DNA of 64,000 nt from Microgenomates group bacterium RBG_16_45_19. Lineage in GTDB: Bacteria > Patescibacteriota > Microgenomatia > UBA1400 > RBG-16-45-19. The notes below the pieces were generated by a model that did not search any database, was not told the origin of the DNA, and saw only the letters and a list, made by a program, of their open reading frames with translations. The translations under genes were made by a program, and so were the position numbers. Positions 8,795 through 25,032 of the stretch are shown here, in pieces (the stretch's first letter is position 1; the number at the start of each line of letters is the position of its first letter). The DNA lies in the NCBI GenBank assembly GCA_001803415.1, contig MHDC01000011.1, positions 4,642 to 68,641 of the forward strand, read 5' to 3'.

Positions 8795-8989
8795 ATGTGC
8801 TTGACGGTGCCGAGACGAGTCGAAAAGGTGGAGGGGGAGAAGGCTTTACTTCAGGATGGGCGGTGGGTCAAGAGCTTGGTGGGAAAGTTGAAGCCGGGAG
8901 AGATGGTGCTGGCGCAGGCGAACTTGGTCATAGAGAAAGTGCCAGTTAAGAGAGTAGGTGAGATGAAGGAAACCCTGCTTGAATCTTGA
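8795..8989 (+). CDS. hypC: hydrogenase maturation factor HypC/HupF family
   Basis: Starts MCLTVP (the canonical MC(L/I)x(I/V)P N-terminus). 64 aa, hydrophobic GEMVLAQANLVIEKV core. Confidence 0.7.
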   Translation: MCLTVPRRVEKVEGEKALLQDGRWVKSLVGKLKPGEMVLAQANLVIEKVPVKRVGEMKETLLES

Positions 8990-8992
8990 TAG

Positions 8993-9028
8993 ATGAATAA
9001 TGAATAATGAATGATGCATGATGAGTAA
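8993..9028. repeat. heptamer tandem repeat block
   Basis: AATGAAT AATGAAT AATGAAT GATGCAT GATGAGT upstream of the EamA-like gene. Confidence 0.65.
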
Positions 9029-9950
9029 ATCACTAAACCAGGGAATAATGTTCGCGATCGGGGCGGCGGTGATTTCGGGAGTGGCTAATTATGCCAATGG
9101 TATGGTAGTGCGGGGGATAGACCCATTAGTGCATAACGTGGTCAAGAACGGCTTGGTGGGGGTGGCCATGCTGGTGATTTTATTAGTCACGGCTGAATGG
9201 CGAACACTGGGCAAGTTAAAGCCCAAACAATGGCGAAACTTGGGGCTGGTAGCCCTGATCGGGGGCAGTATTCCCTTTTGGTTGTTTTTTACCGGGGTCA
9301 AGCAAATCGGGGGGGTGGAGGGGTCAATGATCCATAAAAGTCTGATTTTTTGGGTAGCGTTGATGGCCATACCGCTGCTTAAAGAACGAGTGGGCTTAAA
9401 AATGTGGGCGGCGATTGGATTACTGTATCTATCGAATATGGCCGCTGGGTTTACCGGTTTTAAGACTTTAGGGATAGCTCATTTGATGGTGCTTAGCGCC
9501 ACCATGTTCTGGGCGGTGGAAAACATTTTAGTCAAAAAGACTTTGACGGGAGTGCCCGTGAACGTGGTGGTGACAGCCAGGATGCTGGGTGGAGCGGTGA
9601 TACTGGCCGGAATCTTGGTGGCGTCGGGCAAGGCACCATTAGTGAGCCAGTTAACTACCAGCCAGTGGTGGATGCTGATGGGGGTAGCGTTGTTACTTTT
9701 TGGTTATGTTTCAACTTGGTATCGGGCGTTGCAGTTAGCACCGGTAACGGTGGTAGCTGGCATTTTGGTGGGAGCAACGGTGGTGACCACGATGCTGGAA
9801 GCGGTTTTGAGGACCAAGACTGTGAGCCTGGGGGCGGTGGTCCAGGGGACGATGATGATTACCGGGATCTATTTGGTGGTGACGGCCGTCAAGGATTGGA
9901 AAGCTTTGGGGGATAGGGCAACCACGTTTTGGAAGCCGAAGATTTCATGA
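9018..9950 (+). CDS. EamA/DMT-superfamily transporter-like membrane protein
   Basis: About 10 predicted TM helices with duplicated EamA-like halves. Start may be the ATG at about 9048 (preceded by AGGGAATA). Confidence 0.55.
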   Translation: MMSKSLNQGIMFAIGAAVISGVANYANGMVVRGIDPLVHNVVKNGLVGVAMLVILLVTAEWRTLGKLKPKQWRNLGLVALIGGSIPFWLFFTGVKQIGGVEGSMIHKSLIFWVALMAIPLLKERVGLKMWAAIGLLYLSNMAAGFTGFKTLGIAHLMVLSATMFWAVENILVKKTLTGVPVNVVVTARMLGGAVILAGILVASGKAPLVSQLTTSQWWMLMGVALLLFGYVSTWYRALQLAPVTVVAGILVGATVVTTMLEAVLRTKTVSLGAVVQGTMMITGIYLVVTAVKDWKALGDRATTFWKPKIS

Positions 9951-10714
9951 GTTAAAGGGCGATAGTCGGTTAAGGCAAGCCAACCGTGAGGTAAGAGACG
10001 GAAAAAATGGTAGCCGGGTAAAGCGGCCAGGATGTCTTTAAAAAAGGTACGGGTGTAAGCGTGTAAATCGTTGAATTCCAATTGAACCAGAGCAATAGCT
10101 TGGCGCCGAAGCAAATGGGCGGCACCGGTTAAGACTGGTAACTCGTTACCTTCGGTGTCGATTTTGAGCCAGTCGATGGCTTTAACCGTTTGAGATTTGG
10201 CCCAAGAGTCTAGAGTCACGGTGCTAACCGGATAGCGTTTGACTGGCTGGTGGTAAAAATCGGTAATGATTTGGCGGTGAATAGAGGCTAAGGTGGCAGT
10301 GGGTTGAGTCGGTTTGAGGGGAGCCTGGTCGGCAAAATCATAGAGAAAAGTCCGGCTGACATGATCGCTGACCGCCTGCTGATAAAGGGCAATGGTGGAA
10401 ATAGATTTAAGATGATGTTGCAGCAATTTAAAAGTCTCAGGATTGGGTTCAAAACAGTGATAATGGGCTTTAGGGAAGAAAGTCATCAATTCACGGGTGT
10501 AGCCGCCTTCATTGGCACCAACATCACAGACGACCCTGACCTGAAAGTGCTTTTGGACGTGACGCATAAGCCAGCGTTCGCCGGTAGCCAGGCTGCCTTC
10601 AGCGTTTAAGACTCCTAAACCACGGAGACTGAGGTGATGGAGCCGAGTAAAGAGAGGGGCTAAAGCTGGGCGGCAGAAAAGACGTTGGTAAAGGGTAATC
10701 AGGGAGGCTTTCAT
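9869..10714 (-). CDS. FkbM-family methyltransferase
   Basis: VVCDVGANEGGYTRELMTFFPKAHYHCFEPNPETF, a SAM-binding FkbM motif. Confidence 0.65.
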   Translation of the reverse strand: MKASLITLYQRLFCRPALAPLFTRLHHLSLRGLGVLNAEGSLATGERWLMRHVQKHFQVRVVCDVGANEGGYTRELMTFFPKAHYHCFEPNPETFKLLQHHLKSISTIALYQQAVSDHVSRTFLYDFADQAPLKPTQPTATLASIHRQIITDFYHQPVKRYPVSTVTLDSWAKSQTVKAIDWLKIDTEGNELPVLTGAAHLLRRQAIALVQLEFNDLHAYTRTFFKDILAALPGYHFFRLLPHGWLALTDYRPLTHEIFGFQNVVALSPKAFQSLTAVTTK

Positions 10715-10743: not shown

Positions 10744-11499
10744 ATGCTAAACTGCCTTATGGCCGAAAGCGGAGCGTTGAAGTGTGCCCGGTATGCGTTT
10801 GCGCCAAATTTGTATCATTATTGCGGGCCGGATACCGGGGGTGAGTTTGGGGAATATGTAGCGGCGGAAATGGCAGATGGGGGGTTAGTGGAACATTTGA
10901 CCAAATTTGAAACCTTGTTCCCCTATTTGCAAGTGATTGCCCAAGCCAATGGCCGAGTCGATCCCTTTGACAAACAGGTAGTGGAAGCATATTGGGTGGG
11001 CAACCGGTTGTTGGAGCAAGTGGATGAAAAAGCAACGTTTGCGGCTCTGACAACCTATCAGCATTTACCCCAGCGATTAGCCAAAAAAGAGTTAAAGTGG
11101 TTAATGCCAAAAATCGATAAACAAGCACGGCTGCATCACTCATTTCATGTCTTGAATGTATTTACCCGGACGGGACACCGGACGATTAGACACACGGTGG
11201 AGACGATGGATGAGTGTAGGATTTCCTGGGGGGAAATCCTAAGCTCAGATGTCAAAGCTCAAAACTCAAAACTAAAACTTAAAACTCAAAAACTTATCTA
11301 TTCTGGTGGTAAGCTCAAGCTAGTGCCAGGAGAGAAAGAGGTTTTAGTAGCCCAAGAATCACTGGTTAAGAGACTTAATCCGGGAGATTGGGTAAGTGTG
11401 CATTGGGGGATAGTGTGCGATAAACTAAGTCAACCAGTGGTGGAGCGATTAAAATTTTACACTGAGTATCACCTCAAATTGGCGAATGAGACAATTTAG
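10744..11499 (+). CDS. hypothetical protein
   Basis: 251 aa with no confident family. Contains an in-frame 7-bp tandem repeat (AAAACTC-like, about 6 copies) at 11254-11296. Confidence 0.4.
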   Translation: MLNCLMAESGALKCARYAFAPNLYHYCGPDTGGEFGEYVAAEMADGGLVEHLTKFETLFPYLQVIAQANGRVDPFDKQVVEAYWVGNRLLEQVDEKATFAALTTYQHLPQRLAKKELKWLMPKIDKQARLHHSFHVLNVFTRTGHRTIRHTVETMDECRISWGEILSSDVKAQNSKLKLKTQKLIYSGGKLKLVPGEKEVLVAQESLVKRLNPGDWVSVHWGIVCDKLSQPVVERLKFYTEYHLKLANETI

Positions 11500-11876
11500 G
11501 TAAAGAAGGGTTTGGCTTTGGAGACTTTGAGCATTTTCTTATCAAAAGTTGCAAGAGAGGCTGACTGGGATTTTGTTTGGGCAATAACAAGACAATCGGC
11601 CATTTCTAAGGAAGTAGTTCGATAGATCTGAATTGCTTGACCAACATAAGAGTTTAAGCGAATATTCGATCTTTCGATAAGAAACTGAAAGACTTTGTGA
11701 ATTTCTTTGCGAGTACGGTGGTATTTCTTGTCTAAGATATATTCAGTTTCCGATAAGACAACATCAGGAATGCAGAGAAGTTCTTTGGATTCGACCAAAT
11801 ACTTGACTAAAGCCGCTTGGTGTCGGTTTTTCTGGGAAAAAAGGAGAATGAGAGTGTTGGTATCAAGAACGACCAC
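11496..11876 (-). CDS. PIN-domain toxin (VapC-like)
   Basis: VVVLDTNTLILLF...LLCIPDVVLSE... PIN acidic residues. Start estimated at a GTG near 11876, overlapping the upstream antitoxin's stop. Confidence 0.55.
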   Translation of the reverse strand: MVVLDTNTLILLFSQKNRHQAALVKYLVESKELLCIPDVVLSETEYILDKKYHRTRKEIHKVFQFLIERSNIRLNSYVGQAIQIYRTTSLEMADCLVIAQTKSQSASLATFDKKMLKVSKAKPFFT

Positions 11877-12168
11877 TGCGCTTCTCCTTGGTTTCGAATT
11901 TTTCGAGCACAGCTTGATGAATGATCTGCTTTTGCTCTCTTCTAGAAATGGGTGGGGCTTTGAGGAAACCAAACATCTCCTCAACAGTGATGGTTGGTTC
12001 AATAATAACCTGTTTGGCTTTCAGCTTAATTTTAACGGTTTGCCGCGGTTTTACACCTAGAGCATCACGGTAAGCCTTGGGAATTAAGATTTGGCCTTTA
12101 CTGGTCATGGTAGTAGTGATTGTTTCCATAGTAACACTATGGTACATTGGTGTTACTTTATCTGTCAA
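11863..12168 (-). CDS. AbrB/MazE/SpoVT-family antitoxin (VapB-like)
   Basis: SKGQILIPKAYRDALGVKPRQTVKIKLKAKQVIIEP, a swapped-hairpin antitoxin motif. True start is probably an internal M. Confidence 0.55.
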   Translation of the reverse strand: MTDKVTPMYHSVTMETITTTMTSKGQILIPKAYRDALGVKPRQTVKIKLKAKQVIIEPTITVEEMFGFLKAPPISRREQKQIIHQAVLEKFETKEKRSGRS

Positions 12169-12201
12169 GTGTTACATAAAATTAGTAATGAACAGGAAAT
12201 A

Positions 12202-12600
12202 ATGAAAAAACAAATTATCACTGTTTTTGGGAATGAGACGGAAGCGAAGGATAATTTGGCAGTGAGGCTGGTACCGGACCTCCAGAGGAGGTTTCCTAAA
12301 ATTGAGTTTAGAATTAACGATCCGACGGAAAGTTTGGAGCCGCCGAGCGATCTATGGATAATCTTGGATGTGGGTCAAGGGATTAAAGAGGTGACGGTGG
12401 TCACTGAATTGAAACAATTGGATTACGTTAAAGGCTCATCAGTTCATGATTTTGATGTGTATCTGGAGTTGAAACTAAAGGAAAAGTTGGGGAAGTTGAG
12501 GAAAATCTGCTTGATTTTATTGCCACATGATATGGAAGCACAAACAGCCTACAAACAGGTGGTAAAGTTGTTAGCTACCACTACTTCAACTCGAAGGTGA
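12202..12600 (+). CDS. putative hydrogenase maturation endopeptidase (HycI/HybD-like)
   Basis: Start at the ATG at 12202 with AGGAA RBS. ITVFGNE...D (N-terminal GN + acidic), IILDVGQG (DAxD-like) and SSVHDFDV (SxH) match the three metal-ligand regions of hydrogenase maturation proteases. About 130 aa. Confidence 0.45.
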   Translation: MKKQIITVFGNETEAKDNLAVRLVPDLQRRFPKIEFRINDPTESLEPPSDLWIILDVGQGIKEVTVVTELKQLDYVKGSSVHDFDVYLELKLKEKLGKLRKICLILLPHDMEAQTAYKQVVKLLATTTSTRR

Positions 12601-12659
12601 CAGGAAGAAAGTTTTTTGGCATATTGACATATTGTCATACGATTGTATGATGTGAGTAT

Positions 12660-12893
12660 ATGAAGATGGTGAGGACGACTTTGCGAATCGAAGAAGGCTT
12701 GAAAAAACAAGTGGAGTTGAGAGCGGTTAAGGAAAGCACGACTTTCCAGGCGATAGTTAATCAAGCTTTACGAGATAACTTAACTAATGCGGCTCACAAA
12801 AGAGCGAAGTTGTTGGTGCTGCCTAAGTTCAATTTGGGAGTGCCTTTGGATAATCTGACCCGGGATGAGATTTACGGCGAACCAAAGTGGTAG
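12660..12893 (+). CDS. ribbon-helix-helix antitoxin (VapB/CopG-like)
   Basis: MKMVRTTLRIEEGLKKQVELRAVKESTTFQAIVNQALRDNL; RHH fold. Immediately upstream of a PIN gene. Confidence 0.5.
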   Translation: MKMVRTTLRIEEGLKKQVELRAVKESTTFQAIVNQALRDNLTNAAHKRAKLLVLPKFNLGVPLDNLTRDEIYGEPKW

Positions 12894-12897
12894 GGGT

Positions 12898-13323
12898 ATG
12901 CTGATTGATTCAAACGTGTTTATCTACGCCTTAAACTCGGCATCACCAAAGCATCAAGCGGCTAGATTATTCTTAAGAGCACGAGCGGGTGAAGCGGTAG
13001 TGGCACATCAGAATATTTTGGAAGTGACCAGAGTGATGTCTCATCCAGCTTTTCCGGCTAAATTAGCTTTAAAAATAGTGATTAAGGCTGTCGAACAAGT
13101 AGTCAAACCAATGAGAATAATTTATCCAAATGAAGAAACTTATTTTGTTTATCAAGAACTAATAAGAAAATATGCACTGGAGGGGAATCGGGTCTTTGAC
13201 GTGTATTTAGCAGCTACAGCCATAACCAATGGAATCCGAAAAATCGCTACGGATGATGAAAAGCATTTTCGCGTGCTTGAAGAAATCAAGGTAGTGAACC
13301 CATTTACTTCAGCTCGAAGGTGA
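12898..13323 (+). CDS. PIN-domain toxin (VapC)
   Basis: MLIDSNVFIYAL...VFDVYLAATAITNG...IATDDEKHF. Start at the internal ATG at 12898, 5 nt after the antitoxin stop. Confidence 0.6.
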   Translation: MLIDSNVFIYALNSASPKHQAARLFLRARAGEAVVAHQNILEVTRVMSHPAFPAKLALKIVIKAVEQVVKPMRIIYPNEETYFVYQELIRKYALEGNRVFDVYLAATAITNGIRKIATDDEKHFRVLEEIKVVNPFTSARR

Positions 13324-14044
13324 CGGTGAGGGATTTGTAAACCGTGCTGGTGCCGGGTTCGACCGGGGCACCGCCACCACCGCCCATGTCCCGACCGGCG
13401 GCATACATGAGCACCGGGCTTTGGGCACCAGTTTCGGTCACGTTTAAGACCTCACCCACCTTCTTGTCGGAAGCTTGGGCAATCGCCTCGGCCTTTTCTC
13501 GAGCATTTTTAATGGCTTGGTCAACCAAGTCGAGCTCAGTTTGGGCGGTATCATCAACGGTAAAGTTGGGGCCGTAGACGTTGGTGGCGCCGGAAGCGGA
13601 GAGAAGATCGGTTAACTCAGAAGTTTTCTCGATTTGTCTAAGTTTGATGGAAACGTCATTGCTCACCCGCCACTGGCCGGGTTGAGTACGCTCACGGCCA
13701 CCGACGGTGACTGGTTCTTCCTGCTGATAGATAGAGAGGTTTTGAGTTTTGATGTCGGCTTCGGGGATACCAAAGTCTTTGACCGATTGGATAAGACTCT
13801 CCACTTTTTGATTGACATCGTCAACGGCTTTTTGCTTGTCGTCGTTAACGGCGGTGACGCCAGCGGTAAAGGTGGCAATTTGAGATTGTTGTTCGGTCTT
13901 AGCTTCACCGATAACGGTGACGGTGTCAGCCGGAACCAGGGCGAATTTCCCCCAAGTAATTTGATCCCAAGGGATAAAGAAAGCCCCGGCAAAGATGACT
14001 AAAGCAAAGACTATTAAAGCCCCAGTTAAACGATCAGATTTCAT
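13304..14044 (-). CDS. SIMPL-domain (DUF541) periplasmic protein
   Basis: N-terminal TM anchor then SIMPL-like repeats. Start at the ATG at 14044, preceded by AAGGAGG. Confidence 0.6.
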   Translation of the reverse strand: MKSDRLTGALIVFALVIFAGAFFIPWDQITWGKFALVPADTVTVIGEAKTEQQSQIATFTAGVTAVNDDKQKAVDDVNQKVESLIQSVKDFGIPEADIKTQNLSIYQQEEPVTVGGRERTQPGQWRVSNDVSIKLRQIEKTSELTDLLSASGATNVYGPNFTVDDTAQTELDLVDQAIKNAREKAEAIAQASDKKVGEVLNVTETGAQSPVLMYAAGRDMGGGGGAPVEPGTSTVYKSLTVTFELK

Positions 14045-14126
14045 AGCTAACCTCCTTGTCTTCTTAATATACACTATTGAACCGGAGCTGGTAAATTAGT
14101 ACCACTAATAGTACTATGAGGGGTAT

Positions 14127-14405
14127 ATGGCAAAATTAAATGACACGCTTTTGGCAAATGAGGCACGAGCGAATTTCTACCAAATATTAGATGAAGTGAA
14201 CACCCATCTGAGGCAGTTTACCGTAACCCTTCGGGGCAAGGCTAGGGCGGTAATTATGAGCGCGGAGGAATATGAGGGGTGGCTGGAGACCTTGGAATTG
14301 ATGGCGGATCGAAAAGCAAGCATGGGAATTGAACAGGCGGTGCGTGATTTGGATGAAGGTAAGGGAATACCCTGGAAAAAAGCGAAGAAACAGCTGGGGT
14401 GGTAG
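14127..14405 (+). CDS. Phd/YefM-family antitoxin
   Basis: ANEARANFYQILDEV...AVIMSAEEYEGWLETLEL. Confidence 0.65.
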   Translation: MAKLNDTLLANEARANFYQILDEVNTHLRQFTVTLRGKARAVIMSAEEYEGWLETLELMADRKASMGIEQAVRDLDEGKGIPWKKAKKQLGW

Positions 14406-14414
14406 ACTGAATTT

Positions 14415-14663
14415 ATGGATTTAGACTTGTCGCCGAGAGCGTTAAAGCAACTGGCTAAAATCGGCAAGAAAGATCAAGACCGGTTCGAGAGAAAATTTAG
14501 CCAACTGGGTAATAATCCCTATGCCGGAAAACCACTACGAGGCAAGTTTGCCGGACAGATGAGTCTTAAGGCATGGCCATTAAGAATTATTTATCGAATT
14601 AACACGAAAAAAGTGATCGAGATTTTAGATGTGGATTACCGGGGTGGGGTGTATAAGGACTAA
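14415..14663 (+). CDS. RelE/ParE-family toxin
   Basis: 82 aa, ...AWPLRIIYRINTKKVIEILDVDYRGGVY. Directly follows the Phd/YefM gene. Confidence 0.65.
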   Translation: MDLDLSPRALKQLAKIGKKDQDRFERKFSQLGNNPYAGKPLRGKFAGQMSLKAWPLRIIYRINTKKVIEILDVDYRGGVYKD

Positions 14664-15964
14664 TGGCGGTGGAGTTTGAACTTGAGAAAGTGCGACGCAC
14701 AACTCATGCAGGGGTCGTAGGCGCGAATCAACTTCTCGCATTCGTGTGCCAGGGCGAGTTGATCCAGATCAAGGTGATTTTGAATCAGAGTCTTTAGGTC
14801 GTTTTCGATGTTGATTTGGTTTTGGCCGGTGGGAACGATGATTTCATAGCGGTCGATTTTACTGTCGACCACGTGAGCGGCGTGATAGAGGATACCACGG
14901 GGAGCTTCGATCAAACCGATACCGTCGCCGGTGGGGCGGGCGGACTTAACCGGGGCTTCCTGGACAAACTGAGTTTTTGCTAACAAAGTCAGGGTATAAT
15001 CAATGGCGTCAACTATTTCAATGGCTTGAGCCAAATTGTTGTGATAAACATTGACCGAAGGGAAGAATTTAAGCGCAGCGGCACAGTCCTTAAGAGTACG
15101 AGGTTGAAGTAAGTCTTGGTTAAGGTTGAGGCGGGCTAAGGAGCTAACCATAAAGTCGAAACCTTCGAATTGATAACCGGAAGCGTGAGAATGAGGAATG
15201 ACCACGTGCTGTAGATGCTCTCGGTATTGAGTGTCGGGCAAGAGACGATCGTCATGGGTCTTGAGGGTGCGAGACAATAGGTAATCGTAGTGATCGGCGC
15301 CGCGTAAAGCCAAAAAGCGATGATTACGCTCAAAAGTGAAGTTGACTTGAGCAAAGAGATCAACTAATTGAACCGCCAGCGGGCGGGCAGCTTGGAGTTC
15401 TTGAATGAGATTGGGGATAGACGAGGAATTAACCGGCCGGTTAAAGCCCCCGACCACAAGATCGGGAGCGTGAACGGAGCGACCACCGGCAAAAATGGAG
15501 AGGTGGTTGCCGGCGGCTTTCAGTTTAAACAGGTTTTCGAGCAAAGACCGCTGTTGGGGATTGGTTTCGTCAAAATCAAGAATGGAGTCCAGGTTATAGA
15601 CATCGGGGAGGACAAAGACAACCAGATGCAGGGCATGATCGCGAATATACATGCCGGCGTTGACTAGTTCCCGGCGGACTTGAGTGAGAGGAGTGACGGC
15701 GATGCCCAGGGCGGCTTCAACGGCTTTGAGGGAAGCCAGAATATGAGCATTACTGCAAGTACCGCAGATACGAGCGAGTAAGCTGGGGGCGGCAGCGGCC
15801 GGTTTAGCCTCGACGGCTTTAGTGTAGAAGCGTTTGAAATCGGTGATGGTAAAGCGACACTGAGTCACCGTTTTGCCTTGGACGGTCACGTCCAAAGAAG
15901 CATGACCCTCGATTTTGGTAATTTGGTTAAGGCTGAAAGAAAAGTTATCTTGATGCATAAACAA
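14660..15964 (-). CDS. [NiFe]-hydrogenase large subunit (group 3-like)
   Basis: N-terminal RICGTCSNAH (RxCGxCxxxH) and C-terminal DPCMSCASH (DPCxxCxxH) nickel-site motifs, followed by a short cleavable tail (FLKFKLHRH). The track start is a TTG; an ATG lies two codons in. Confidence 0.85.
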   Translation of the reverse strand: MFMHQDNFSFSLNQITKIEGHASLDVTVQGKTVTQCRFTITDFKRFYTKAVEAKPAAAAPSLLARICGTCSNAHILASLKAVEAALGIAVTPLTQVRRELVNAGMYIRDHALHLVVFVLPDVYNLDSILDFDETNPQQRSLLENLFKLKAAGNHLSIFAGGRSVHAPDLVVGGFNRPVNSSSIPNLIQELQAARPLAVQLVDLFAQVNFTFERNHRFLALRGADHYDYLLSRTLKTHDDRLLPDTQYREHLQHVVIPHSHASGYQFEGFDFMVSSLARLNLNQDLLQPRTLKDCAAALKFFPSVNVYHNNLAQAIEIVDAIDYTLTLLAKTQFVQEAPVKSARPTGDGIGLIEAPRGILYHAAHVVDSKIDRYEIIVPTGQNQINIENDLKTLIQNHLDLDQLALAHECEKLIRAYDPCMSCASHFLKFKLHRH

Positions 15965-15967
15965 TGA

Positions 15968-16489
15968 TCAATGGTTGATGGTTGATGATTTAGAAACGAT
16001 GGGAGCGTGGCCGAAGTCGACGAGTAACTGGTTAACGGTGGCTAAAAAGGTATCGAGATTCATGGGGCAGCCGGGGACCTGGGCGTCGACAGGAATGACT
16101 TGAGTGAGCGGTTTGATCTGATCGGGATAATTAAATTTGGTCAAGATGGGTTGAATGGCAGCGATTTGCTCGGGGGTGAAAGTGTTTCTTTGAGCCGAAG
16201 GCAGACCGGTACAGGCACAGGAGCCGATGGCCACGACTTTTTGGGCACGTTGACGTAACTTTAACATGGTGACGACGTCGTGATCGGAGTTGGCGGCACC
16301 CTCGATAAAAGCAATGTCCAGCGGTGATTGAGTGTCTCTTTTTGAGGAAAAGGTGGCGGCGTCAATAAAATTGAAATGTTTTTTGAATTCGAAAAAATAA
16401 TCGTTTAAGAGTTCAGCAAACATGATGGTTGAGTCCTCGCAGCAAGCAAAGGAATACCAAGCAATAGCCAGTTTAGGGAGGTTGGGCAT
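15968..16489 (-). CDS. [NiFe]-hydrogenase small subunit (group 3 delta-like)
   Basis: IAWYSFACCEDS, AIGSCACTG and PGCPM cysteine motifs for the proximal Fe-S cluster. Start at the ATG at 16489. Confidence 0.7.
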   Translation of the reverse strand: MPNLPKLAIAWYSFACCEDSTIMFAELLNDYFFEFKKHFNFIDAATFSSKRDTQSPLDIAFIEGAANSDHDVVTMLKLRQRAQKVVAIGSCACTGLPSAQRNTFTPEQIAAIQPILTKFNYPDQIKPLTQVIPVDAQVPGCPMNLDTFLATVNQLLVDFGHAPIVSKSSTINH

Positions 16490-16545
16490 GGATAAAGGAT
16501 ACCGGGTTGCCGGAGGAGTAGCAAGAGTGGGAGATGACTTAAGTG

Positions 16546-16583
16546 AATGAGTAATGAGTAAGAAACAATGAGTAATGTATAAT
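16546..16583. repeat. heptamer tandem repeat block (AATGAGT family)
   Basis: AATGAGT AATGAGT AAGAAAC AATGAGT AATGTAT between the hydrogenase small-subunit start and the YqeY start. Confidence 0.7.
16576..16583 (+). promoter_or_regulatory. extended -10 promoter element (TGTATAAT) for the YqeY-like gene
   Basis: TGnTATAAT at 16576-16583, 23 nt upstream of the ATG at 16606, with a GGAAAGGAG RBS in between. Confidence 0.35.
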
Positions 16584-16605
16584 CGCAATAATGGAAAGGA
16601 GAGTT

Positions 16606-17040
16606 ATGCTGAGGCAACAAATACACGATGAGATGATCGCGGCGATGAAAGCCCAGGATGTAAAAAAACTGGAAACGGTGCGCTATGTCTGGAGTGAGAT
16701 TAAGCGGGTGGAGATTGATGCCAAGCATGAATTAACGGATGAAGAAGTGATTGAATTGTTGCGCCGCGAAGTGAAAAAACGCCAGGAAGCAGTGGTGCAA
16801 ATGCGGGCGGGCGGCAGACTAGACGGAGTGGAGCACGAAGAAGCCCAGTTAAAAATTATTACCAGTTATTTACCCCAATTGATGAGCCGAGAGGAGATCG
16901 AAGGAGTGGTGGATGAAGTGATCAAGGCCGGACAACTTGACTTTGGCGCCGTGATGCGGGAGGTGATGGCTAAAGTTAAAGGCAAAGCGGACGGGAAAAT
17001 GGTGAGTGAAATCGTGAGGGAAAAACTTAGTTTGACTTAG
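16606..17040 (+). CDS. GatB/YqeY-domain protein
   Basis: MLRQQIHDEMIAAMKAQDVKKLETVRYVWSEIK... is a typical YqeY protein. Start at the second ATG, which has a strong RBS. Confidence 0.7.
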   Translation: MLRQQIHDEMIAAMKAQDVKKLETVRYVWSEIKRVEIDAKHELTDEEVIELLRREVKKRQEAVVQMRAGGRLDGVEHEEAQLKIITSYLPQLMSREEIEGVVDEVIKAGQLDFGAVMREVMAKVKGKADGKMVSEIVREKLSLT

Positions 17041-17241
17041 GTTGGTAAGAAGCTTTATTCTGATTATAGACATGCAGGACTCATCTAATTTCCTGGTATC
17101 AGCCAGTCTTTGGAAGAAGTTGATCATCGCCCTGCCCATCATTATCGTTTTAGCTTGGTTAAACTTGATGGGAGTGTGAAGAGGGAAGACTATTTAGGCC
17201 AGACCCTTCGGCAAGCTCAGGATTAGGGCTATCAGTGGGAT

Positions 17242-17856
17242 TTATTTAGGCCAGACTTTTTCGCCGGTTTCGGTGTCGATAACTTCAATAGCTAAGGTGG
17301 GACAACTCTGAGCCGCAAGCAAGAGATTCTCGTCGGTTTCTTCTTTGACGGTGGCTAAAACTTCAGCAATCTGTTGGTCATTCAAGCGAAAGGCTTTGGG
17401 AGCGACAGCGACGCAAGAAGCGGCGCCGATACACTTACTGGCAATGACCCGGACCTGATATTTGCCGGCACCGCGGCCTTCGGTGTCACCGGCAGCGGCG
17501 TTAGGAACAGCAGGCGGAGTAGCATCAGCCTTAATCACCGGCGTAGGGATTTGGACCGGTGGTGGGATGACGGGGGTGGGTTCAGAGATCGAGGGTGGCG
17601 GAGAGGGGGGGGTTAGTGGAGTTGGCGGTACGATTGGTGGCGGCTCGGGCGGCTCGACCTCAGGTTCGGGGGCGGGAACCGGTGGGGTATTCAGCGGCGG
17701 GAGCGGGGCAGGGGGTGAGGGCGGGGTGATTGGCGGAGTGAGAGGCTCGGGGGGCGCGGGTGGAGTGATATTGCCCAAGGGAGGTGGGGGGAAGGAAGAT
17801 GTCAGTGGAGTTGGCGGCTCTGAGACACCAGTTAAGGGATTTTTTTGATCGTCCAT
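17242..17856 (-). CDS. single-cluster ferredoxin with a long proline-rich N-terminal extension
   Basis: The C-terminal 70 aa align with Pyrococcus-type ferredoxin (KCIGAASCVAVAP...SCPTLAIEV; CxxAxxC...CP). The N-terminal 130 aa is PxxP-rich low complexity. Confidence 0.6.
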   Translation of the reverse strand: MDDQKNPLTGVSEPPTPLTSSFPPPPLGNITPPAPPEPLTPPITPPSPPAPLPPLNTPPVPAPEPEVEPPEPPPIVPPTPLTPPSPPPSISEPTPVIPPPVQIPTPVIKADATPPAVPNAAAGDTEGRGAGKYQVRVIASKCIGAASCVAVAPKAFRLNDQQIAEVLATVKEETDENLLLAAQSCPTLAIEVIDTETGEKVWPK

Positions 17857-17940
17857 AAAAGCTCCTTTAGATGATTGCTGACGAAACTGTAATCAGGATA
17901 GCGAAAATGAAGGATAGAAGCAAGGATAAATACGACCGGG

Positions 17941-18651
17941 CTAGTAGAACTGCTCGTGATGGATGTGAGTCTCGGACACACCTTGAGAGAGAAGGTATTG
18001 ACTGACATCTTCTATCATCGGTTTGTTGCCACAGAGATAAAAGCCGGTGTTGGCCAATGACTGATAGTGTTTTTTTAAACAATCGGTGACCCGGCCGGAA
18101 CAAAGAGGCCAGTTTTCCGGTGGACGAGACAAGACCAGATCAAAAGTAAAATTAGAAAAACTCTCATGGAGAAGGAAAAAATCCTGCTCCCAAAAAATAT
18201 CTTGGGGATAACGCAAACCCCAGTGAAGCGACAGGGGGCGGAGGTCATGTTGAGTATGCAATAAATTTAAGATTATCGAACGGACCGCCGAAATGCCGGA
18301 ACCGGTGGCCACAAAGACTAATTTTGGCTCGGTGGGGTCAGGAGCTAAGACAAACCGACCGATAGGAGCCATGAAAGAGATGGTCTCACCGGGATTTAAT
18401 GACTGCAGGTAAAGCGAGCCATCACCCTGAGGAGAAACATCAACTAAAATTTCAACTTTGTAATTTTCGGCGGGGTTGGAAGCGATGGAATAGCTTTTTT
18501 TGGCGGCCATACCGGGGACATTCATCATCAGGTACTGACCGGCTTGAAAGTTTAAAGTTTGGGGTTCAATTAACTCGAAAGTGACATACTGGAATTTGTC
18601 CTTGATCAGAGTGTGGTCGGAAACTTTGGCGGTAAAGGTTTGGACAGGCAT
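17941..18651 (-). CDS. FNR-family FAD/NAD(P)-binding oxidoreductase
   Basis: KKSYSIAS (RxYS FAD motif), VATGSGISAV (NAD(P)-binding GxGxxP-like) and a C-terminal aromatic ...EQFY. Start at the internal ATG at 18651. Confidence 0.65.
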   Translation of the reverse strand: MPVQTFTAKVSDHTLIKDKFQYVTFELIEPQTLNFQAGQYLMMNVPGMAAKKSYSIASNPAENYKVEILVDVSPQGDGSLYLQSLNPGETISFMAPIGRFVLAPDPTEPKLVFVATGSGISAVRSIILNLLHTQHDLRPLSLHWGLRYPQDIFWEQDFFLLHESFSNFTFDLVLSRPPENWPLCSGRVTDCLKKHYQSLANTGFYLCGNKPMIEDVSQYLLSQGVSETHIHHEQFY

Positions 18652-18729
18652 AAGAATTACTACCTTACACGAGGAGGGCAGCAAAGACAAGTGTACTAGA
18701 AGCAGAAGTGGGAGGGTAGGGGTCTTGAT

Positions 18730-19317
18730 TCATAATTTAATCGCTTTTAGAAAATGTTTCATGAGGACTCGGGCGATAAGGCGGTGGCCGAGAGTGTTGG
18801 GGTGGAGGTAATCAGGCTCCGGTTGACTGGTAAATTCTAAAGTGTAAGTGAAGATTCTAGATAAATCCTGATGCTTAAAAACGTGCCAAAGATCCACCAG
18901 GTGGCAATTTTTTTCGAGGGTAACAGTTTTGATGGCGGTTAAATAGGGGAGATACTGCTTGGCAATGGAGTAATGGTCAATTTGGTTAGGAGTTAACAGC
19001 CAAAGATGACTAAGGTGGCGTTGGGTTAGAGAATGGATAATTTTACGGAGGTAATCAGTGAAAACATCAACCGAAGTTAGGTAATGAGCATCATTGTGGC
19101 CAAACATGACAGTTACTAGATCGGGTTGATGAGAGAGGACGTCTCGATCCAGACGATAATAGCCACCCTGGGCCGTGTCGCCGTTGACGCCGGTGGAGAT
19201 AACTTTGACCTTACCGGAGCCGTATTTTTGATTTAAAAGTATCTGCCAATAGGTGGGATATTTGGGTTCGTCCCGCTCATAGGTGATAGAGTCGCCGAGA
19301 CAGACAAGGGTAAACAT
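18730..19317 (-). CDS. SGNH/GDSL hydrolase family protein
   Basis: LGDSITYE (GDS(L) block I) and GHNDA block. Confidence 0.65.
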   Translation of the reverse strand: MFTLVCLGDSITYERDEPKYPTYWQILLNQKYGSGKVKVISTGVNGDTAQGGYYRLDRDVLSHQPDLVTVMFGHNDAHYLTSVDVFTDYLRKIIHSLTQRHLSHLWLLTPNQIDHYSIAKQYLPYLTAIKTVTLEKNCHLVDLWHVFKHQDLSRIFTYTLEFTSQPEPDYLHPNTLGHRLIARVLMKHFLKAIKL

Positions 19318-24493: not shown

Positions 24494-24751
24494 TCAACGG
24501 TAGAGGTGGTGGGTGCCGATGTCTAAGAAAGTGACACTACCGTCCGGTTCGAATTTGATAAGGATACGATAGTGATAGTCTATAGAAAAAGCAGCTAAGC
24601 CTGTAAGTTTTCCCTTGAGATAGTGTGTTTTTAGACTAAGATCTTCGGGGTTACGCTTAAAGATAGCTTCTTGCTGGGCAGTTTCGATTTGTAAACGATG
24701 CGGTATACGCTCAAAATGTTTGACAAATTGAGTGGCGTAATAGATTTTCAT
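24494..24751 (-). CDS. RelE/ParE-family toxin
   Basis: 85 aa, YRILIKFEPDGSVTFLDIGTHH. Overlaps the upstream antitoxin by 4 nt. Confidence 0.6.
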   Translation of the reverse strand: MKIYYATQFVKHFERIPHRLQIETAQQEAIFKRNPEDLSLKTHYLKGKLTGLAAFSIDYHYRILIKFEPDGSVTFLDIGTHHLYR

Positions 24752-25032
24752 TTTTTAGGCTTAATCAGATCTAAAACTGATTCCGCTTCTATCAGTCTAC
24801 CCTCTTTTTTATCCTTTTTGTATTCTTGAACGATTCTGAGAACATCATGTAATTCCAGTTCTTCAAGTTGTGATTTCATGGCATCCAGCTCTTGGGCGTC
24901 AATAATAGCCACATCAGGTTTGTTGTTGGTAAGAACCACCACTGGCTGTTTGGTTTTTTTGGCCAAGTCAAAAACCCGGCGGTAGTTGCGTTGGATATCT
25001 TTGGCGGAGACGGTTTGGGGCATTAAACTCAT
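24748..25032 (-). CDS. Phd/YefM-family antitoxin
   Basis: AKDIQRNYRRVFDLAKKTKQPVVVLTNNKPDVAIID. Confidence 0.6.
   Translation of the reverse strand: MSLMPQTVSAKDIQRNYRRVFDLAKKTKQPVVVLTNNKPDVAIIDAQELDAMKSQLEELELHDVLRIVQEYKKDKKEGRLIEAESVLDLIKPKK

What the first reader, a model, noticed from the sequence alone, without database searches (positions are those of the whole stretch)
14660..18651. NiFe-hydrogenase dimer paired with a stand-alone FNR-type flavoprotein and a ferredoxin instead of canonical group-3 beta/gamma subunits
The minus-strand order is FNR-like flavoprotein (with terminal Tyr), ferredoxin, then, after the divergent YqeY-like gene, hydrogenase small subunit and large subunit. 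The large subunit has a maturation-type cleavable tail. No FeS-rich beta subunit and no 2Fe-2S gamma subunit is present. This suggests an electron path NAD(P)H to FNR to ferredoxin to hydrogenase (or the reverse), built from separate small modules. hypC and a HycI-like protease are 3-6 kb away; no hypABDEF genes are in the window.
Basis: partly seen in the sequence, partly recalled or inferred. Interest (0 to 1): 0.6.

Follow-up and report, generated by a model that had tools for sequence, protein, structure and literature searches.

The report
Minimal CPR hydrogenase beside housekeeping ferredoxin pair
This is the already described two-subunit "hyd2" nickel-iron hydrogenase of Candidate Phyla Radiation bacteria, and the neighbouring flavoprotein and ferredoxin are a real redox couple that belongs to a conserved iron-sulfur-assembly gene block beside which the hydrogenase cluster lies in this lineage only.

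Summary
In detail: large subunit, short small subunit, divergent YqeY, ferredoxin and a stand-alone FNR-type flavoprotein lie at the stated coordinates. HypC and a divergent HycI-like protease are nearby, and no beta/gamma or hypABDEF genes were found in the window.

The enzyme is the CPR "hyd2" group-3b-related hydrogenase of Jaffe et al. 2020. Their dataset includes this genome (Microgenomates RBG_16_45_19).

Across 87 hyd2 loci the conserved unit is small>large> converging on <protease<DUF6390<EamA<hypC. FNR-type hits occur in 5 of 87, adjacent only in one subclade.

FNR and the ferredoxin are true partners: adjacent elsewhere and fused through a proline-rich linker in some genomes. Their conserved neighbours are SUF, TsaDE and YqeY. 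In this subclade the 7.8-kb hyd2 cluster lies between YqeY and a cytidylyltransferase-like gene, where relatives have 0.9 kb.

In Parcubacteria, the same ferredoxin family plus a non-homologous BphA4-type ferredoxin reductase sits inside hyd2 operons. A ferredoxin-mediated link to NAD(P)H is therefore plausible, but not as a dedicated FNR complex.

Details I did not find in the literature searched: a tandem-Cys (CCEDS) proximal-cluster motif, and a hyd2-linked EamA/DUF6390 module whose C-terminal domain is HypC-like.

The parts
14660..15964 (-). [NiFe]-hydrogenase large subunit of the CPR hyd2 type, group-3b-related. The true start is probably the ATG at 15958, giving 432 aa.
   Evidence: PF00374 at 3.6e-28. 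Best solved relatives are P. furiosus SHI alpha (1.3e-56) and the T. kodakarensis cytosolic enzyme (9.4e-54); MvhA scores 2e-36 and HoxH 1.5e-24. E19, RICGTCSNAH, EAPRG and DPCMSCASHFLK are invariant in 14 homologues. NCBIfam sulfhyd_HydA gives 205 bits against a cut-off of 880.
15968..16489 (-). Truncated small subunit, 173 aa, with a proximal cluster only and the tandem-cysteine motif CCEDS
   Evidence: PF01058. It aligns only to residues 1-160 of the 261-aa SHI delta. In 85 homologues only four Cys are near-invariant: C16, C17, C91 and C141. C17 aligns with the first Cys of the SHI CYGC motif, and S20 replaces the second.
16591..17040 (+). YqeY-like gene on the opposite strand. It is part of the conserved backbone, not of the hydrogenase.
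   Evidence: PF09424 at 1.2e-38. It is adjacent to the FNR in L092 and L094, where no hydrogenase is nearby.
17242..17856 (-). Single-cluster ferredoxin (three-Cys motif CxxAxxC...CP) with a roughly 125-aa proline-rich N-terminal tether
   Evidence: Fer4_13 at 6e-10. It has its own AAGGAG Shine-Dalgarno sequence and ATG, and two in-frame stops separate it from the FNR. The Pro-rich part corresponds to the linker of the fused FNR-Fd proteins P0286 and P0288. All 18 family members share the three-Cys motif.
17941..18651 (-). Stand-alone FNR-type flavoprotein, 236 aa, ending in Tyr; a probable NAD(P)H:ferredoxin reductase
   Evidence: PF00970 + PF00175. Best solved relatives are NqrF, MMOR, BenC and Fre. 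[quoted passage not shown] It lies next to the ferredoxin in L087-L090 and L093.
12202..12600 (+). Divergent HycI/HybD-type hydrogenase maturation endopeptidase
   Evidence: Present in 82 of 87 hyd2 loci, typically about 0.8 kb from the large subunit (centre to centre) on the opposite strand, and in 36 of 36 complete loci. 8 of 19 members hit PF01750. D18, D57 and H83 are invariant.
10744..11499 (+). DUF6390 protein: a helical Cys/His-rich N-terminal domain plus a HypC-like OB-fold C-terminal domain
   Evidence: PF19927 at 2.8e-55. Present in 60 of 87 hyd2 loci and 28 of 36 complete ones. C14, C27, H131, H132, H135, C158, H220 and C225 are invariant. The AF2 model has pLDDT 86.6. Foldseek matched only the C-terminal OB-fold domain (ribosomal S17, HypC 2z1c_B at rank 5, E 1.3e-2) and found no significant match covering the helical domain. 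Both reverse look-ups landed next to hyd2.
9018..9950 (+). EamA-family (DMT) membrane transporter, co-operonic with DUF6390 and hypC in canonical loci
   Evidence: Annotated PF00892 in homologous loci. Present in 48 of 87 loci. Fused to DUF6390 in a single ORF in L036 (559 aa) and L013.
8795..8989 (+). HypC-family chaperone (N-terminal MCL...)
   Evidence: PF01455 at 29.7 bits, cut-off 28.5. TIGR00074 gives only 21.2 bits against a cut-off of 48. Found in 31 of 87 loci at the head of the converging operon.
13304..14074 (-). SIMPL/DUF541 protein immediately downstream of the large subunit; it recurs next to hyd2 in a few lineages
   Evidence: PF04402 at 3.9e-42. Found next to hyd2 in 6 of 87 loci.
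11496..14663 (.). Three toxin-antitoxin pairs interspersed in the cluster. Together with the FkbM methyltransferase at 9869-10714, they stretch the normally compact locus.
   Evidence: MazE/AbrB + PIN at 11496-12168 (-), unassigned ORF + PIN at 12660-13323 (+), and Phd/YefM + ParE at 14127-14663 (+). FkbM is PF05050. Centre-to-centre spacing from the large subunit is 0.8/1.4/2.2/2.8 kb in canonical loci and 3.0/4.2/5.8/6.4 kb here.

Best explanation
The locus encodes the CPR-specific "hyd2" enzyme, a minimal cytoplasmic [NiFe]-hydrogenase related to group 3b. It consists of the catalytic large subunit and a short small subunit. The small subunit keeps only the proximal Fe-S cluster, probably held by a tandem Cys-Cys pair plus two further Cys.

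Maturation (inferred) uses a dedicated converging gene set: hypC, an EamA transporter, DUF6390 and a divergent HycI-like protease that would remove the 9-residue tail.

The enzyme has no built-in diaphorase. The most likely mechanism is direct electron exchange between the exposed proximal cluster and a small soluble ferredoxin of the CxxAxxC...CP family.

The neighbouring FNR and Pro-rich-tethered ferredoxin form a real NAD(P)H:ferredoxin oxidoreductase couple. They belong to a conserved SUF/TsaDE/YqeY housekeeping block, and their primary role may be electron supply to Fe-S assembly. In this one lineage the hyd2 cluster lies next to that block.

Through the shared ferredoxin, electrons could pass NAD(P)H <-> FNR <-> Fd <-> hydrogenase, or 2-oxoacid:ferredoxin oxidoreductase -> Fd -> H2. 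This would be a loose, pool-mediated link rather than a dedicated complex replacing beta/gamma.

Shown here: gene content, motif conservation, synteny and fusions. Inferred: cluster ligation, the ferredoxin as redox partner, and the direction of electron flow.
For: - **Identity.** Closest to group 3b by sequence, with catalytic motifs invariant. All homologous loci come from CPR lineages, and 339 species genomes carry a relative. The locus matches the published hyd2 description: truncated small subunit, hypC nearby, no beta/gamma. This genome is in that dataset.
- **Conserved architecture.** Over 87 loci: small subunit 85, protease 82, DUF6390 60, EamA 48, HypC 31, ferredoxin 16, FNR 5. Over the 36 complete loci: 36, 36, 28, 27, 20, 7 and 3.
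- **FNR-Fd as a couple.** Adjacent in L087-L090 and L093, and fused in P0286 and P0288.
- **Backbone synteny.** SufCBDS-NifU-TsaD-TsaE-FNR-YqeY-[0.9 kb]-CTP_transf-Band7-GroES-GroEL is collinear in L092 and L094. The window has 7.8 kb holding the hyd2 cluster at that gap. On the contig that holds L092, hyd2 (L002) lies about 180 kb away.
- **Ferredoxin as partner.** Fd plus a BphA4-type reductase lies inside hyd2 operons in at least 9 loci, in three different arrangements. 2-oxoacid:ferredoxin oxidoreductase alpha/beta lies next to hyd2 in 4 loci.
Against: - No biochemical data exist for any hyd2 enzyme.
- No ferredoxin was found within 10 kb in 71 of 87 loci.
- Fd-reductase pairs also follow NifS-NifU or SUF genes. 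Their presence near hyd2 could therefore reflect a hyd2/Fe-S-assembly neighbourhood rather than redox partnership.
- A three-Cys (3Fe-4S-type) ferredoxin may have too positive a potential for H2 evolution.
- Whether the rest of this genome encodes beta/gamma-like subunits or another partner could not be checked.
- The tandem-Cys ligation is inferred from alignment only.
Confidence: 0.55

Rival explanations
1. FNR and the ferredoxin are dedicated functional replacements of the group-3b gamma and beta subunits. With the hydrogenase dimer they form a modular H2:NAD(P)+ oxidoreductase, and selection maintains their adjacency to the hydrogenase.
For: - FNR and Fd are a true couple.
- The adjacency is kept in the three or four sister loci: window, L001, L006 and L007.
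- An analogous Fd plus non-homologous ferredoxin reductase is operonic with hyd2 in Parcubacteria. This looks like non-orthologous displacement of the same function.
Against: - An FNR-type hit lies within 10 kb in only 5 of 87 loci and 3 of 36 complete loci.
- YqeY on the other strand separates the pair from the hydrogenase genes.
- FNR keeps its SUF/TsaDE/YqeY neighbourhood when hyd2 is 180-400 kb away.
- In L092 and L094 the FNR has no adjacent ferredoxin at all.
Confidence: 0.22
2. The adjacency has no functional meaning. FNR-Fd serves only Fe-S cluster biogenesis or other housekeeping, as ISC ferredoxin and its reductase do. hyd2 would then use an unidentified partner or acceptor, such as another carrier, polysulfide or a host-derived molecule.
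For: - The FNR (with the ferredoxin in L093) directly follows SufCBDS-NifU.
- In Parcubacteria the order is NifS-NifU-Fd-FdR.
- Most hyd2 loci have no redox partner gene nearby.
Against: - In L039, L053 and L095 a ferredoxin-reductase gene abuts or overlaps the small-subunit gene, and in L033 the ferredoxin gene does.
- In L024, L032 and L067, Fd-FdR heads the EamA-DUF6390-protease operon. That is hard to explain without a link to the hydrogenase.
- OFOR lies beside hyd2 in 4 loci.
Confidence: 0.18
3. hyd2 is a decaying or non-catalytic hydrogenase relic, as proposed for the CPR Ehr-like group-4 proteins that have lost their metal ligands.
For: - No hypABDEF genes were found in the window.
- Only one of 87 loci (L022) has hypDEF within 10 kb.
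- The small subunit is truncated.
Against: - All four Ni-Fe cysteines, the EGH Glu and the APRG Arg are invariant at 48-78% overall identity.
- A dedicated protease, HypC and a cleavable tail are retained in nearly all loci.
- The four small-subunit cysteines are near-invariant.
- L022 shows that canonical HypDEF can accompany hyd2.
Confidence: 0.04

Closest known systems
CPR 'hyd2' group-3b-related [NiFe]-hydrogenase (Jaffe et al. 2020, BMC Biol 18:69, PMC7304191)
   Same: CPR-restricted relatives. Small subunit truncated to about 164-173 aa. A hypC-like gene nearby. No beta/gamma. NAD-binding and Fe-S proteins near only a subset. This very genome (Microgenomates RBG_16_45_19) is in their dataset.
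   Different: Nothing essential. That paper leaves the function open. In the text and supplements I read or searched I found no mention of the tandem-Cys motif, the protease/DUF6390/EamA operon, or the SUF-linked origin of the FNR-Fd pair.
Pyrococcus furiosus sulfhydrogenase I and the Thermococcus kodakarensis cytosolic NiFe hydrogenase (group 3b; PDB 9nez, 9e15, 5yxy)
   Same: Closest solved large subunit (E 1e-56, full-length alignment) and small subunit. Short C-terminal tail after DPCxxCxxH.
   Different: Those enzymes are heterotetramers. Their delta subunit is 261 aa and, to my knowledge, carries three clusters. Their beta subunit carries Fe-S clusters, and gamma carries FAD, NAD(P) and 2Fe-2S. 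Here the small subunit stops after the proximal-cluster domain, the CxxC is replaced by CC..S, and no beta/gamma is present. NCBIfam scores are far below the equivalog cut-offs.
Single-cluster small subunits HoxY (group 3d, PDB 5xf9_C, 189 aa) and HydS of the HydABCSL complex (PDB 7t2r_E, 179 aa)
   Same: Comparable length to the small subunit here. That they carry only the proximal cluster is my own knowledge.
   Different: Those subunits dock permanently onto HoxU/HoxF-type Fe-S/flavin subunits encoded in the same operon (my knowledge). hyd2 loci encode no such partner.
Cluster N2 of respiratory complex I (NuoB/PSST/NDUFS7)
   Same: A homologous fold (PF01058). [quoted passage not shown]
   Different: hyd2 is closest to group-3 small subunits (SHI delta 4.6e-22 against NuoB 1.7e-3 or weaker), is soluble and is paired with a true Ni-Fe large subunit. 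The resemblance is therefore probably convergent. Ligation and potential are untested.
FNR-like reductase modules of BenC, MmoC, AntC and NqrF, and the flavin reductase Fre
   Same: The same two-domain FAD_binding_6 + NAD_binding_1 fold, and the best sequence matches.
   Different: Those reductases (except Fre) carry a fused plant-type 2Fe-2S domain (my knowledge). Here the flavoprotein stands alone, or is fused C-terminally through a Pro-rich linker to a Fer4_13 ferredoxin.
Ferredoxin/ferredoxin-reductase electron supply to Fe-S cluster assembly (ISC Fdx with Fpr, or adrenodoxin reductase; my own knowledge)
   Same: A small ferredoxin plus an NAD(P)H-dependent flavoprotein encoded directly after cysteine desulfurase/scaffold genes.
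   Different: The known ISC ferredoxin is a 2Fe-2S protein. Here the partner is a three-Cys Fer4_13 ferredoxin next to SUF or NifSU genes. This role is inferred from synteny only.

Membership tests
[NiFe]-hydrogenase (large subunit superfamily) | N-terminal RxCGxCxxxH and C-terminal DPCxxCxxH motifs that supply the four Ni-Fe cysteines | tested here: met
   RICGTCSNAH and DPCMSCASH are invariant in 14 homologues. PF00374 matches.
Group 3b (NADP-coupled / sulfhydrogenase) | The large subunit is most similar to characterised 3b enzymes | tested here: met
   SHI alpha 1.3e-56, against MvhA (3c) 2e-36, HoxH (3d) 1.5e-24 and FrhA (3a) 1.5e-24. However, it scores 205 bits against a cut-off of 880 for NCBIfam sulfhyd_HydA. 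No tree with HydDB references was built.
Group 3b (NADP-coupled / sulfhydrogenase) | Delta small subunit of about 250-260 aa with proximal, medial and distal clusters | tested here: not met
   The subunit is 173 aa and aligns only to residues 1-160 of the 261-aa SHI delta. Only four Cys are conserved.
Group 3b (NADP-coupled / sulfhydrogenase) | Beta (Fe-S, AsrA-like) and gamma (FAD/NAD(P) + 2Fe-2S, AsrB-like) subunits encoded with the hydrogenase | tested here: not met
   Neither was found in the window or in the six annotated homologous loci L001-L006. The FNR scores only 38 bits against sulfhyd_HydG (cut-off 650) and lacks the 2Fe-2S domain. The rest of the genome was not searchable.
CPR hyd2 clade (Jaffe et al. 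2020) | Truncated small subunit (mean 164 aa), a hypC-like neighbour, no beta/gamma, CPR host | tested here: met
   173 aa here and a median of 168 aa in 83 loci. hypC at 8795-8989. All 80 genome loci come from CPR lineages. This genome is listed in their supplement. Placement in their tree was not re-derived.
Plant-type FNR superfamily | FAD_binding_6 + NAD_binding_1 domains, with a C-terminal aromatic residue | tested here: met
   PF00970 at 2.3e-14 and PF00175 at 5.5e-15. The protein ends ...HHEQFY. Nucleotide specificity was not tested.
HycI/HybD hydrogenase maturation endopeptidase | PF01750 fold with an acidic/Asp/His metal-binding triad | tested here: inconclusive
   8 of 19 members hit PF01750, best E 2.6e-4; the window protein itself does not. 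D18, D57 and H83 are invariant. There is no PDB sequence hit. The single-sequence AF2 model is unusable (pLDDT 48.8).
HypC/HupF chaperone | N-terminal Met-Cys, about 65-90 aa, OB fold | tested here: met
   The sequence starts MCLTVP... PF01455 gives 29.7 bits against a cut-off of 28.5. TIGR00074 is below its cut-off, 21 against 48.
Complex I NuoB / cluster N2 type | Tandem Cys-Cys ligation of the single [4Fe-4S] cluster | not testable with these tools
   The CC motif is conserved (C16 in 81 of 81 aligned sequences, C17 in 76 of 81) and the second Cys of the canonical CxxC is replaced by Ser. Actual ligation needs a structure or spectroscopy. By sequence it is a group-3 small subunit, not NuoB.

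The most novel reading that the evidence does not exclude
Most hyd2 hydrogenases may be matured by a module not described in the literature I searched. It would consist of an EamA-family membrane transporter working with DUF6390. DUF6390 is a cytoplasmic protein with an invariant Cys/His-rich helical domain that has no significant match among solved structures, plus a HypC-like OB domain. It is fused to the transporter in two lineages.

This module could deliver a metal or cofactor precursor to the large subunit, replacing part of the canonical Hyp machinery (HypA/B, or even HypD/E/F). In addition, the enzyme's only Fe-S cluster may be a complex-I-N2-like tandem-cysteine cluster tuned for direct ferredoxin docking.
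Probability: 0.3. Interest if true: 0.7.

Novelty: already known. Interest (0 to 1): 0.38.

Why it matters
hyd2 occurs in at least 339 species-level CPR genomes. It is one of the few redox enzymes in these reduced, probably symbiotic bacteria, and its partner and physiological direction are unknown.

If a soluble ferredoxin is the partner, as the comparative evidence suggests but does not prove, this would be among the simplest [NiFe]-hydrogenase systems I know of. It would link H2 to fermentation, to NAD(P)H and possibly to Fe-S assembly in CPR.

The finding itself repeats what Jaffe et al. 2020 described. Its specific claim, a dedicated FNR partner, is largely explained by where the hyd2 cluster happens to lie in this lineage.

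What this analysis adds is testable: which ferredoxin and which reductases to reconstitute, a tandem-Cys cluster to examine, and DUF6390/EamA as candidate maturation factors.

Tried and rejected
- **Gamma-subunit hypothesis for the FNR.** Rejected: only 38 bits against HydG, no 2Fe-2S domain, and the best matches are BenC, MmoC, NqrF and Fre.
- **A single interrupted FNR-Fd gene (read-through or sequencing error).** Rejected: two in-frame stops separate the ORFs, and the ferredoxin has its own AAGGAG + ATG.
- **Promoter/terminator scan of 14400-19000.** Fewer sites than in shuffled sequence, so uninformative.
- **Protease identity.** The PDB profile search gave no hit. The single-sequence model was unusable at pLDDT 48.8. 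Only weak Pfam and hhalign support remains.
- **Metagenome scan with the FNR.** Only 5 loci came back, but they sufficed to show FNR-Fd adjacency.
- **Searches for hypA/B/D/E/F.** None was found in the window ORFs scanned. HypDEF lies within 10 kb of hyd2 only in L022. Whole genomes could not be scanned, so absence is not established.
- **Literature.** No paper mentions DUF6390. None combines hypD/E/F with Parcubacteria.

Full report
**1. Observation**

- On the minus strand: an FNR-type flavoprotein (17941-18651; FAD_binding_6 + NAD_binding_1; ends HHEQFY), a single-cluster ferredoxin (17242-17856), a short small subunit (15968-16489; PF01058 only) and a [NiFe] large subunit (14660-15964; PF00374).
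- On the plus strand, between the ferredoxin and the small subunit: a YqeY gene (16591-17040).

The large subunit carries RICGTCSNAH and DPCMSCASH followed by a 9-residue tail.

hypC lies at 8795-8989. The ORF at 12202-12600 belongs to a family of which 8 of 19 members hit Pfam HycI. Its invariant D18, D57 and H83 align with the HybD metal triad.

Pfam scans of about 40 window ORFs and a motif scan of all window ORFs found no beta or gamma subunit and no hypA/B/D/E/F. [quoted passage not shown]

**2. What the hydrogenase is**

The large subunit is closest to solved group-3b enzymes:

| Reference | Group | E-value |
|---|---|---|
| P. furiosus SHI alpha | 3b | 1.3e-56 |
| T. kodakarensis cytosolic | 3b | 9.4e-54 |
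| MvhA | 3c | 2e-36 |
| HoxH | 3d | 1.5e-24 |
| FrhA | 3a | 1.5e-24 |

It nevertheless scores far below the NCBIfam equivalog cut-off, 205 against 880 bits.

In 14 homologues at 48-78% identity, the EGH glutamate, both CxxC motifs, the APRG arginine and the first residues of the tail (FLK) are invariant or nearly so. The enzyme is therefore under selection as a catalyst.

Thousands of homologues exist. Every homologue that carries a source name is from the CPR. 339 GTDB species genomes encode a relative, and all 80 loci retrieved are from CPR lineages.

Jaffe et al. 2020 (PMC7304191) already defined this clade as "hyd2". Their description is a CPR-specific, long-branch relative of group 3b, with a small subunit truncated to a mean of 164 aa and a hypC-like neighbour. 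They found no co-located beta/gamma, and NAD-binding (PF07992) and Fe-S families near only a subset. They concluded that "its function remains uncertain". Their genome table lists this very genome. The core of the finding is therefore published.

**3. Small subunit**

The 173-aa protein aligns only with residues 1-160 of the 261-aa SHI delta subunit. It lacks the C-terminal portion which, to my knowledge, carries the medial and distal clusters.

In 85 homologues exactly four cysteines are near-invariant: C16, C17, C91 and C141. In the profile alignment, C17 matches the first Cys of the SHI motif S-C-Y-G-C, and the second Cys of that motif is replaced by a conserved Ser. C16 is an extra Cys directly before it, giving the motif CCEDS(T).

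A tandem Cys-Cys plus two distant Cys is the ligand pattern of complex I cluster N2. There it is described as strained and associated with a high, pH-dependent potential (PMC8042128). By sequence the protein is a group-3 small subunit, not NuoB. I read the resemblance as convergent. It is an inference from sequence.

**4. Conserved genomic architecture**

I called ORFs in 87 loci (the window, L001-L006 and the 80 genome loci) and searched them with the window proteins by jackhmmer.

| Gene | All 87 loci | 36 complete ±10 kb loci | Typical centre-to-centre distance from the large subunit, strand |
|---|---|---|---|
| Small subunit | 85 | 36 | directly upstream, same strand |
| Protease | 82 | 36 | +0.8 kb, opposite |
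| DUF6390 | 60 | 28 | +1.4 kb, opposite |
| EamA | 48 | 27 | +2.2 kb, opposite |
| HypC | 31 | 20 | +2.8 kb, opposite |
| Ferredoxin | 16 | 7 | variable |
| FNR | 5 | 3 | variable |
| YqeY | 5 | 3 | variable |
| SIMPL | 6 | 3 | variable |

The canonical locus is therefore small>large> converging on <protease<DUF6390<EamA<hypC.

The window has the same genes in the same order, stretched to 3.0/4.2/5.8/6.4 kb. The extra sequence consists of three toxin-antitoxin pairs, a SIMPL gene and an FkbM methyltransferase.

**5. The FNR and the ferredoxin**

The FNR's best relatives are the reductase modules of NqrF, MMOR, BenC and AntC, and the flavin reductase Fre. SHI gamma is a distant hit at 3e-10 (38 bits in NCBIfam).

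FNR and the ferredoxin are partners of each other:
- In four metagenome contigs with 43-50% identical FNRs, the ferredoxin gene follows on the same strand. In three of them it abuts or overlaps the FNR gene; in L088 it lies about 0.7 kb downstream.
- In P0286 and P0288 the two are fused as FNR / Pro-rich linker / ferredoxin.

The window ferredoxin's proline-rich N-terminus corresponds to that linker. It is translated from its own AAGGAG + ATG, with two stops separating it from the FNR. All 18 family members share CxxAxxC...CP, a three-Cys motif typical (to my knowledge) of 3Fe-4S ferredoxins.

**6. Why they lie next to the hydrogenase here**

An FNR-type hit lies within 10 kb of hyd2 only in the window, L001 and L006, plus two distant opposite-strand cases (L074 and a partial hit at the end of L084). 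L007 shares the window's arrangement but is truncated at the ferredoxin.

Two genomes place hyd2 elsewhere:
- **The contig that holds L002.** hyd2 is about 180 kb from the FNR. The FNR sits in SufC-SufB-SufD-SufS-NifU-TsaD-TsaE-FNR-YqeY-orf-CTP_transf-Band7-GroES-GroEL (L092).
- **The Chisholmbacteria contig that holds L020.** hyd2 is about 400 kb from SufCBDS-NifU-Sua5-FNR-Fd (L093).

L094 shows the same block.

Reciprocal BLAST shows that the window is collinear with this block on both sides. Between YqeY and the cytidylyltransferase-like gene, L092 has 0.9 kb. The window has 7.8 kb that contain the whole hyd2 cluster.

The simplest reading is that the hyd2 cluster was placed into a conserved housekeeping block in the ancestor of this subclade. 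The FNR-Fd pair's own conserved association is with Fe-S assembly genes. YqeY on the opposite strand also makes FNR-Fd and small-large separate transcription units.

**7. Evidence that still favours a ferredoxin link**

At least nine loci from unrelated Parcubacteria-type lineages carry the same ferredoxin family plus a 410-420-aa Pyr_redox_2 protein inside the hyd2 cluster. Three arrangements occur:
- NifS-NifU-Fd-FdR-small-large, with overlapping genes (L039). L026, L053 and L051 are similar. L095 has FdR-small-large.
- Fd-FdR-EamA-DUF6390-protease, converging on the hydrogenase (L024, L032, L067).
- Split arrangements (L036, L076).

The best solved relatives of the Pyr_redox_2 protein include ferredoxin-NAD+ reductases such as BphA4, putidaredoxin reductase and TodA, at 1e-33 to 1e-38; the single best hit is a monodehydroascorbate reductase at 1.3e-38.

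L033 has Fd-small-large directly. Four loci have 2-oxoacid:ferredoxin oxidoreductase alpha/beta next to hyd2.

Two non-homologous NAD(P)H:ferredoxin reductases thus recur with one ferredoxin family near hyd2. This fits a ferredoxin-mediated connection. These pairs also follow NifS-NifU, however, so a shared Fe-S-assembly neighbourhood is an alternative reading. Cysteine desulfurase plus NifU occur in 12 of 86 loci.

**8. Maturation genes**

- **DUF6390.** It has invariant C14, C27 (YCGP), H131, H132, H135 (HHSFH), C158, H220, C225 and a C-terminal LANETI. A confident AF2 model (pLDDT 86.6, pTM 0.87) shows a helical N-terminal domain, then a beta-barrel and a terminal helix.
- **Fold comparison.** Foldseek against the PDB matches only the barrel: ribosomal S17, and HypC of T. 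kodakarensis at rank 5 (TMt 0.62). All matches are weak, with E above 1e-3, and none covers the helical domain. One homologue carries a precomputed HypC Pfam hit, and JGI labels several "hydrogenase maturation factor".
- **Link to hyd2.** Both DUF6390 homologues looked up in reverse sit next to hyd2.
- **Fusions.** In L036 and L013, EamA and DUF6390 form a single ORF.
- **Canonical Hyp genes.** Only L022 (Moraniibacteriota) has HypD-HypE and HypF beside hyd2, and that locus lacks DUF6390 and EamA.
- **Open question.** Whether genomes that carry DUF6390 lack HypDEF could not be tested. No paper mentions DUF6390.

**9. Verdict**

- **Observation:** confirmed.
- **Identity:** the published CPR hyd2 enzyme, in a genome that was already analysed.
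- **Interpretation:** partly supported. The enzyme lacks beta/gamma, the FNR-Fd pair is a real NAD(P)H:ferredoxin couple, and a ferredoxin-mediated path is plausible. The specific adjacency, however, is a lineage-specific placement next to a SUF-linked housekeeping block, not a conserved modular complex.
- **Best mechanism (confidence about 0.55):** a minimal heterodimer that exchanges electrons with the soluble ferredoxin pool. The direction of electron flow is unresolved.
- **Details I did not find in the literature searched:** the tandem-Cys motif and the EamA/DUF6390/HycI-like/hypC operon.

Noticed in passing
window 10744-11499 (DUF6390) and 9018-9950 (EamA); L036:11726-13405; L013:3524-4798: DUF6390 is an uncharacterised Pfam family. 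It has an invariant Cys/His set, a helical domain with no significant match among solved structures, and a HypC-like OB domain. It is tightly linked to hyd2 (60 of 87 loci, and both reverse look-ups). In two lineages it is fused to the EamA transporter in a single ORF. It is a candidate new hydrogenase maturation or metal-delivery module.
   Followed up: partly
window 15968-16489 (residues 16-20 of the small subunit): The proximal-cluster motif is CCEDS(T) instead of the canonical CxxC. This tandem cysteine pair resembles complex I cluster N2. C16 is present in 81 of 81 aligned sequences and C17 in 76 of 81; the other five have Ser at position 17.
   Followed up: partly
window 17479-17856 (N-terminal about 125 aa of the ferredoxin); P0286, P0288: The ferredoxin carries a long proline-rich extension, about 40% Pro. 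In other genomes the equivalent stretch is the linker of a fused FNR-ferredoxin protein. The window thus holds a split version that keeps the tether.
   Followed up: yes
window 11496-12168, 12660-13323, 14127-14663 and 24494-25032: Three type II toxin-antitoxin pairs (MazE/AbrB-PIN, unassigned ORF-PIN, Phd/YefM-ParE) are interspersed within the hyd2 cluster. A further Phd-type antitoxin with a partner ORF (no Pfam match) lies near NifU. Together with an FkbM methyltransferase at 9869-10714, they account for most of the extra length compared with canonical loci.
   Followed up: partly
L022:16-3725: This is the only hyd2 locus with canonical HypD-HypE and HypF directly adjacent. It lacks DUF6390, EamA and HypC within 10 kb, which hints at mutually exclusive maturation gene sets.
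   Followed up: partly
L022, L024, L034, L044, L050, L054, L062, L064, L070, L075, L095: A P1B-type heavy-metal ATPase with an HMA domain lies within 10 kb of hyd2 in 10 of 86 loci, and also in L095. In L022 it is accompanied by a CsoR-like metal-sensing repressor. This may bear on metal supply or be coincidental.
   Followed up: no
window 13304-14074: A SIMPL/DUF541 protein (weakly YggE-like, annotated as an oxidative stress defense protein) sits directly next to the hydrogenase genes here and in five other loci (L001, L004, L005, L006, L007).
   Followed up: no
window 44362-45303: A 313-aa ORF with four CxxC pairs matched a HypF-zinc-finger-like pattern but no Pfam family. It lies among type-IV-secretion-like genes (TraG- and TrwB-like ATPases at 40744-42555 and 45601-47901).
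   Followed up: no
whole window: GC skew is positive in every 2-kb bin but one across all 64 kb, so cumulative skew rises almost monotonically to 6.6. I saw no skew switch that would mark an origin or terminus, although dnaN lies at 50403-51533.
   Followed up: no
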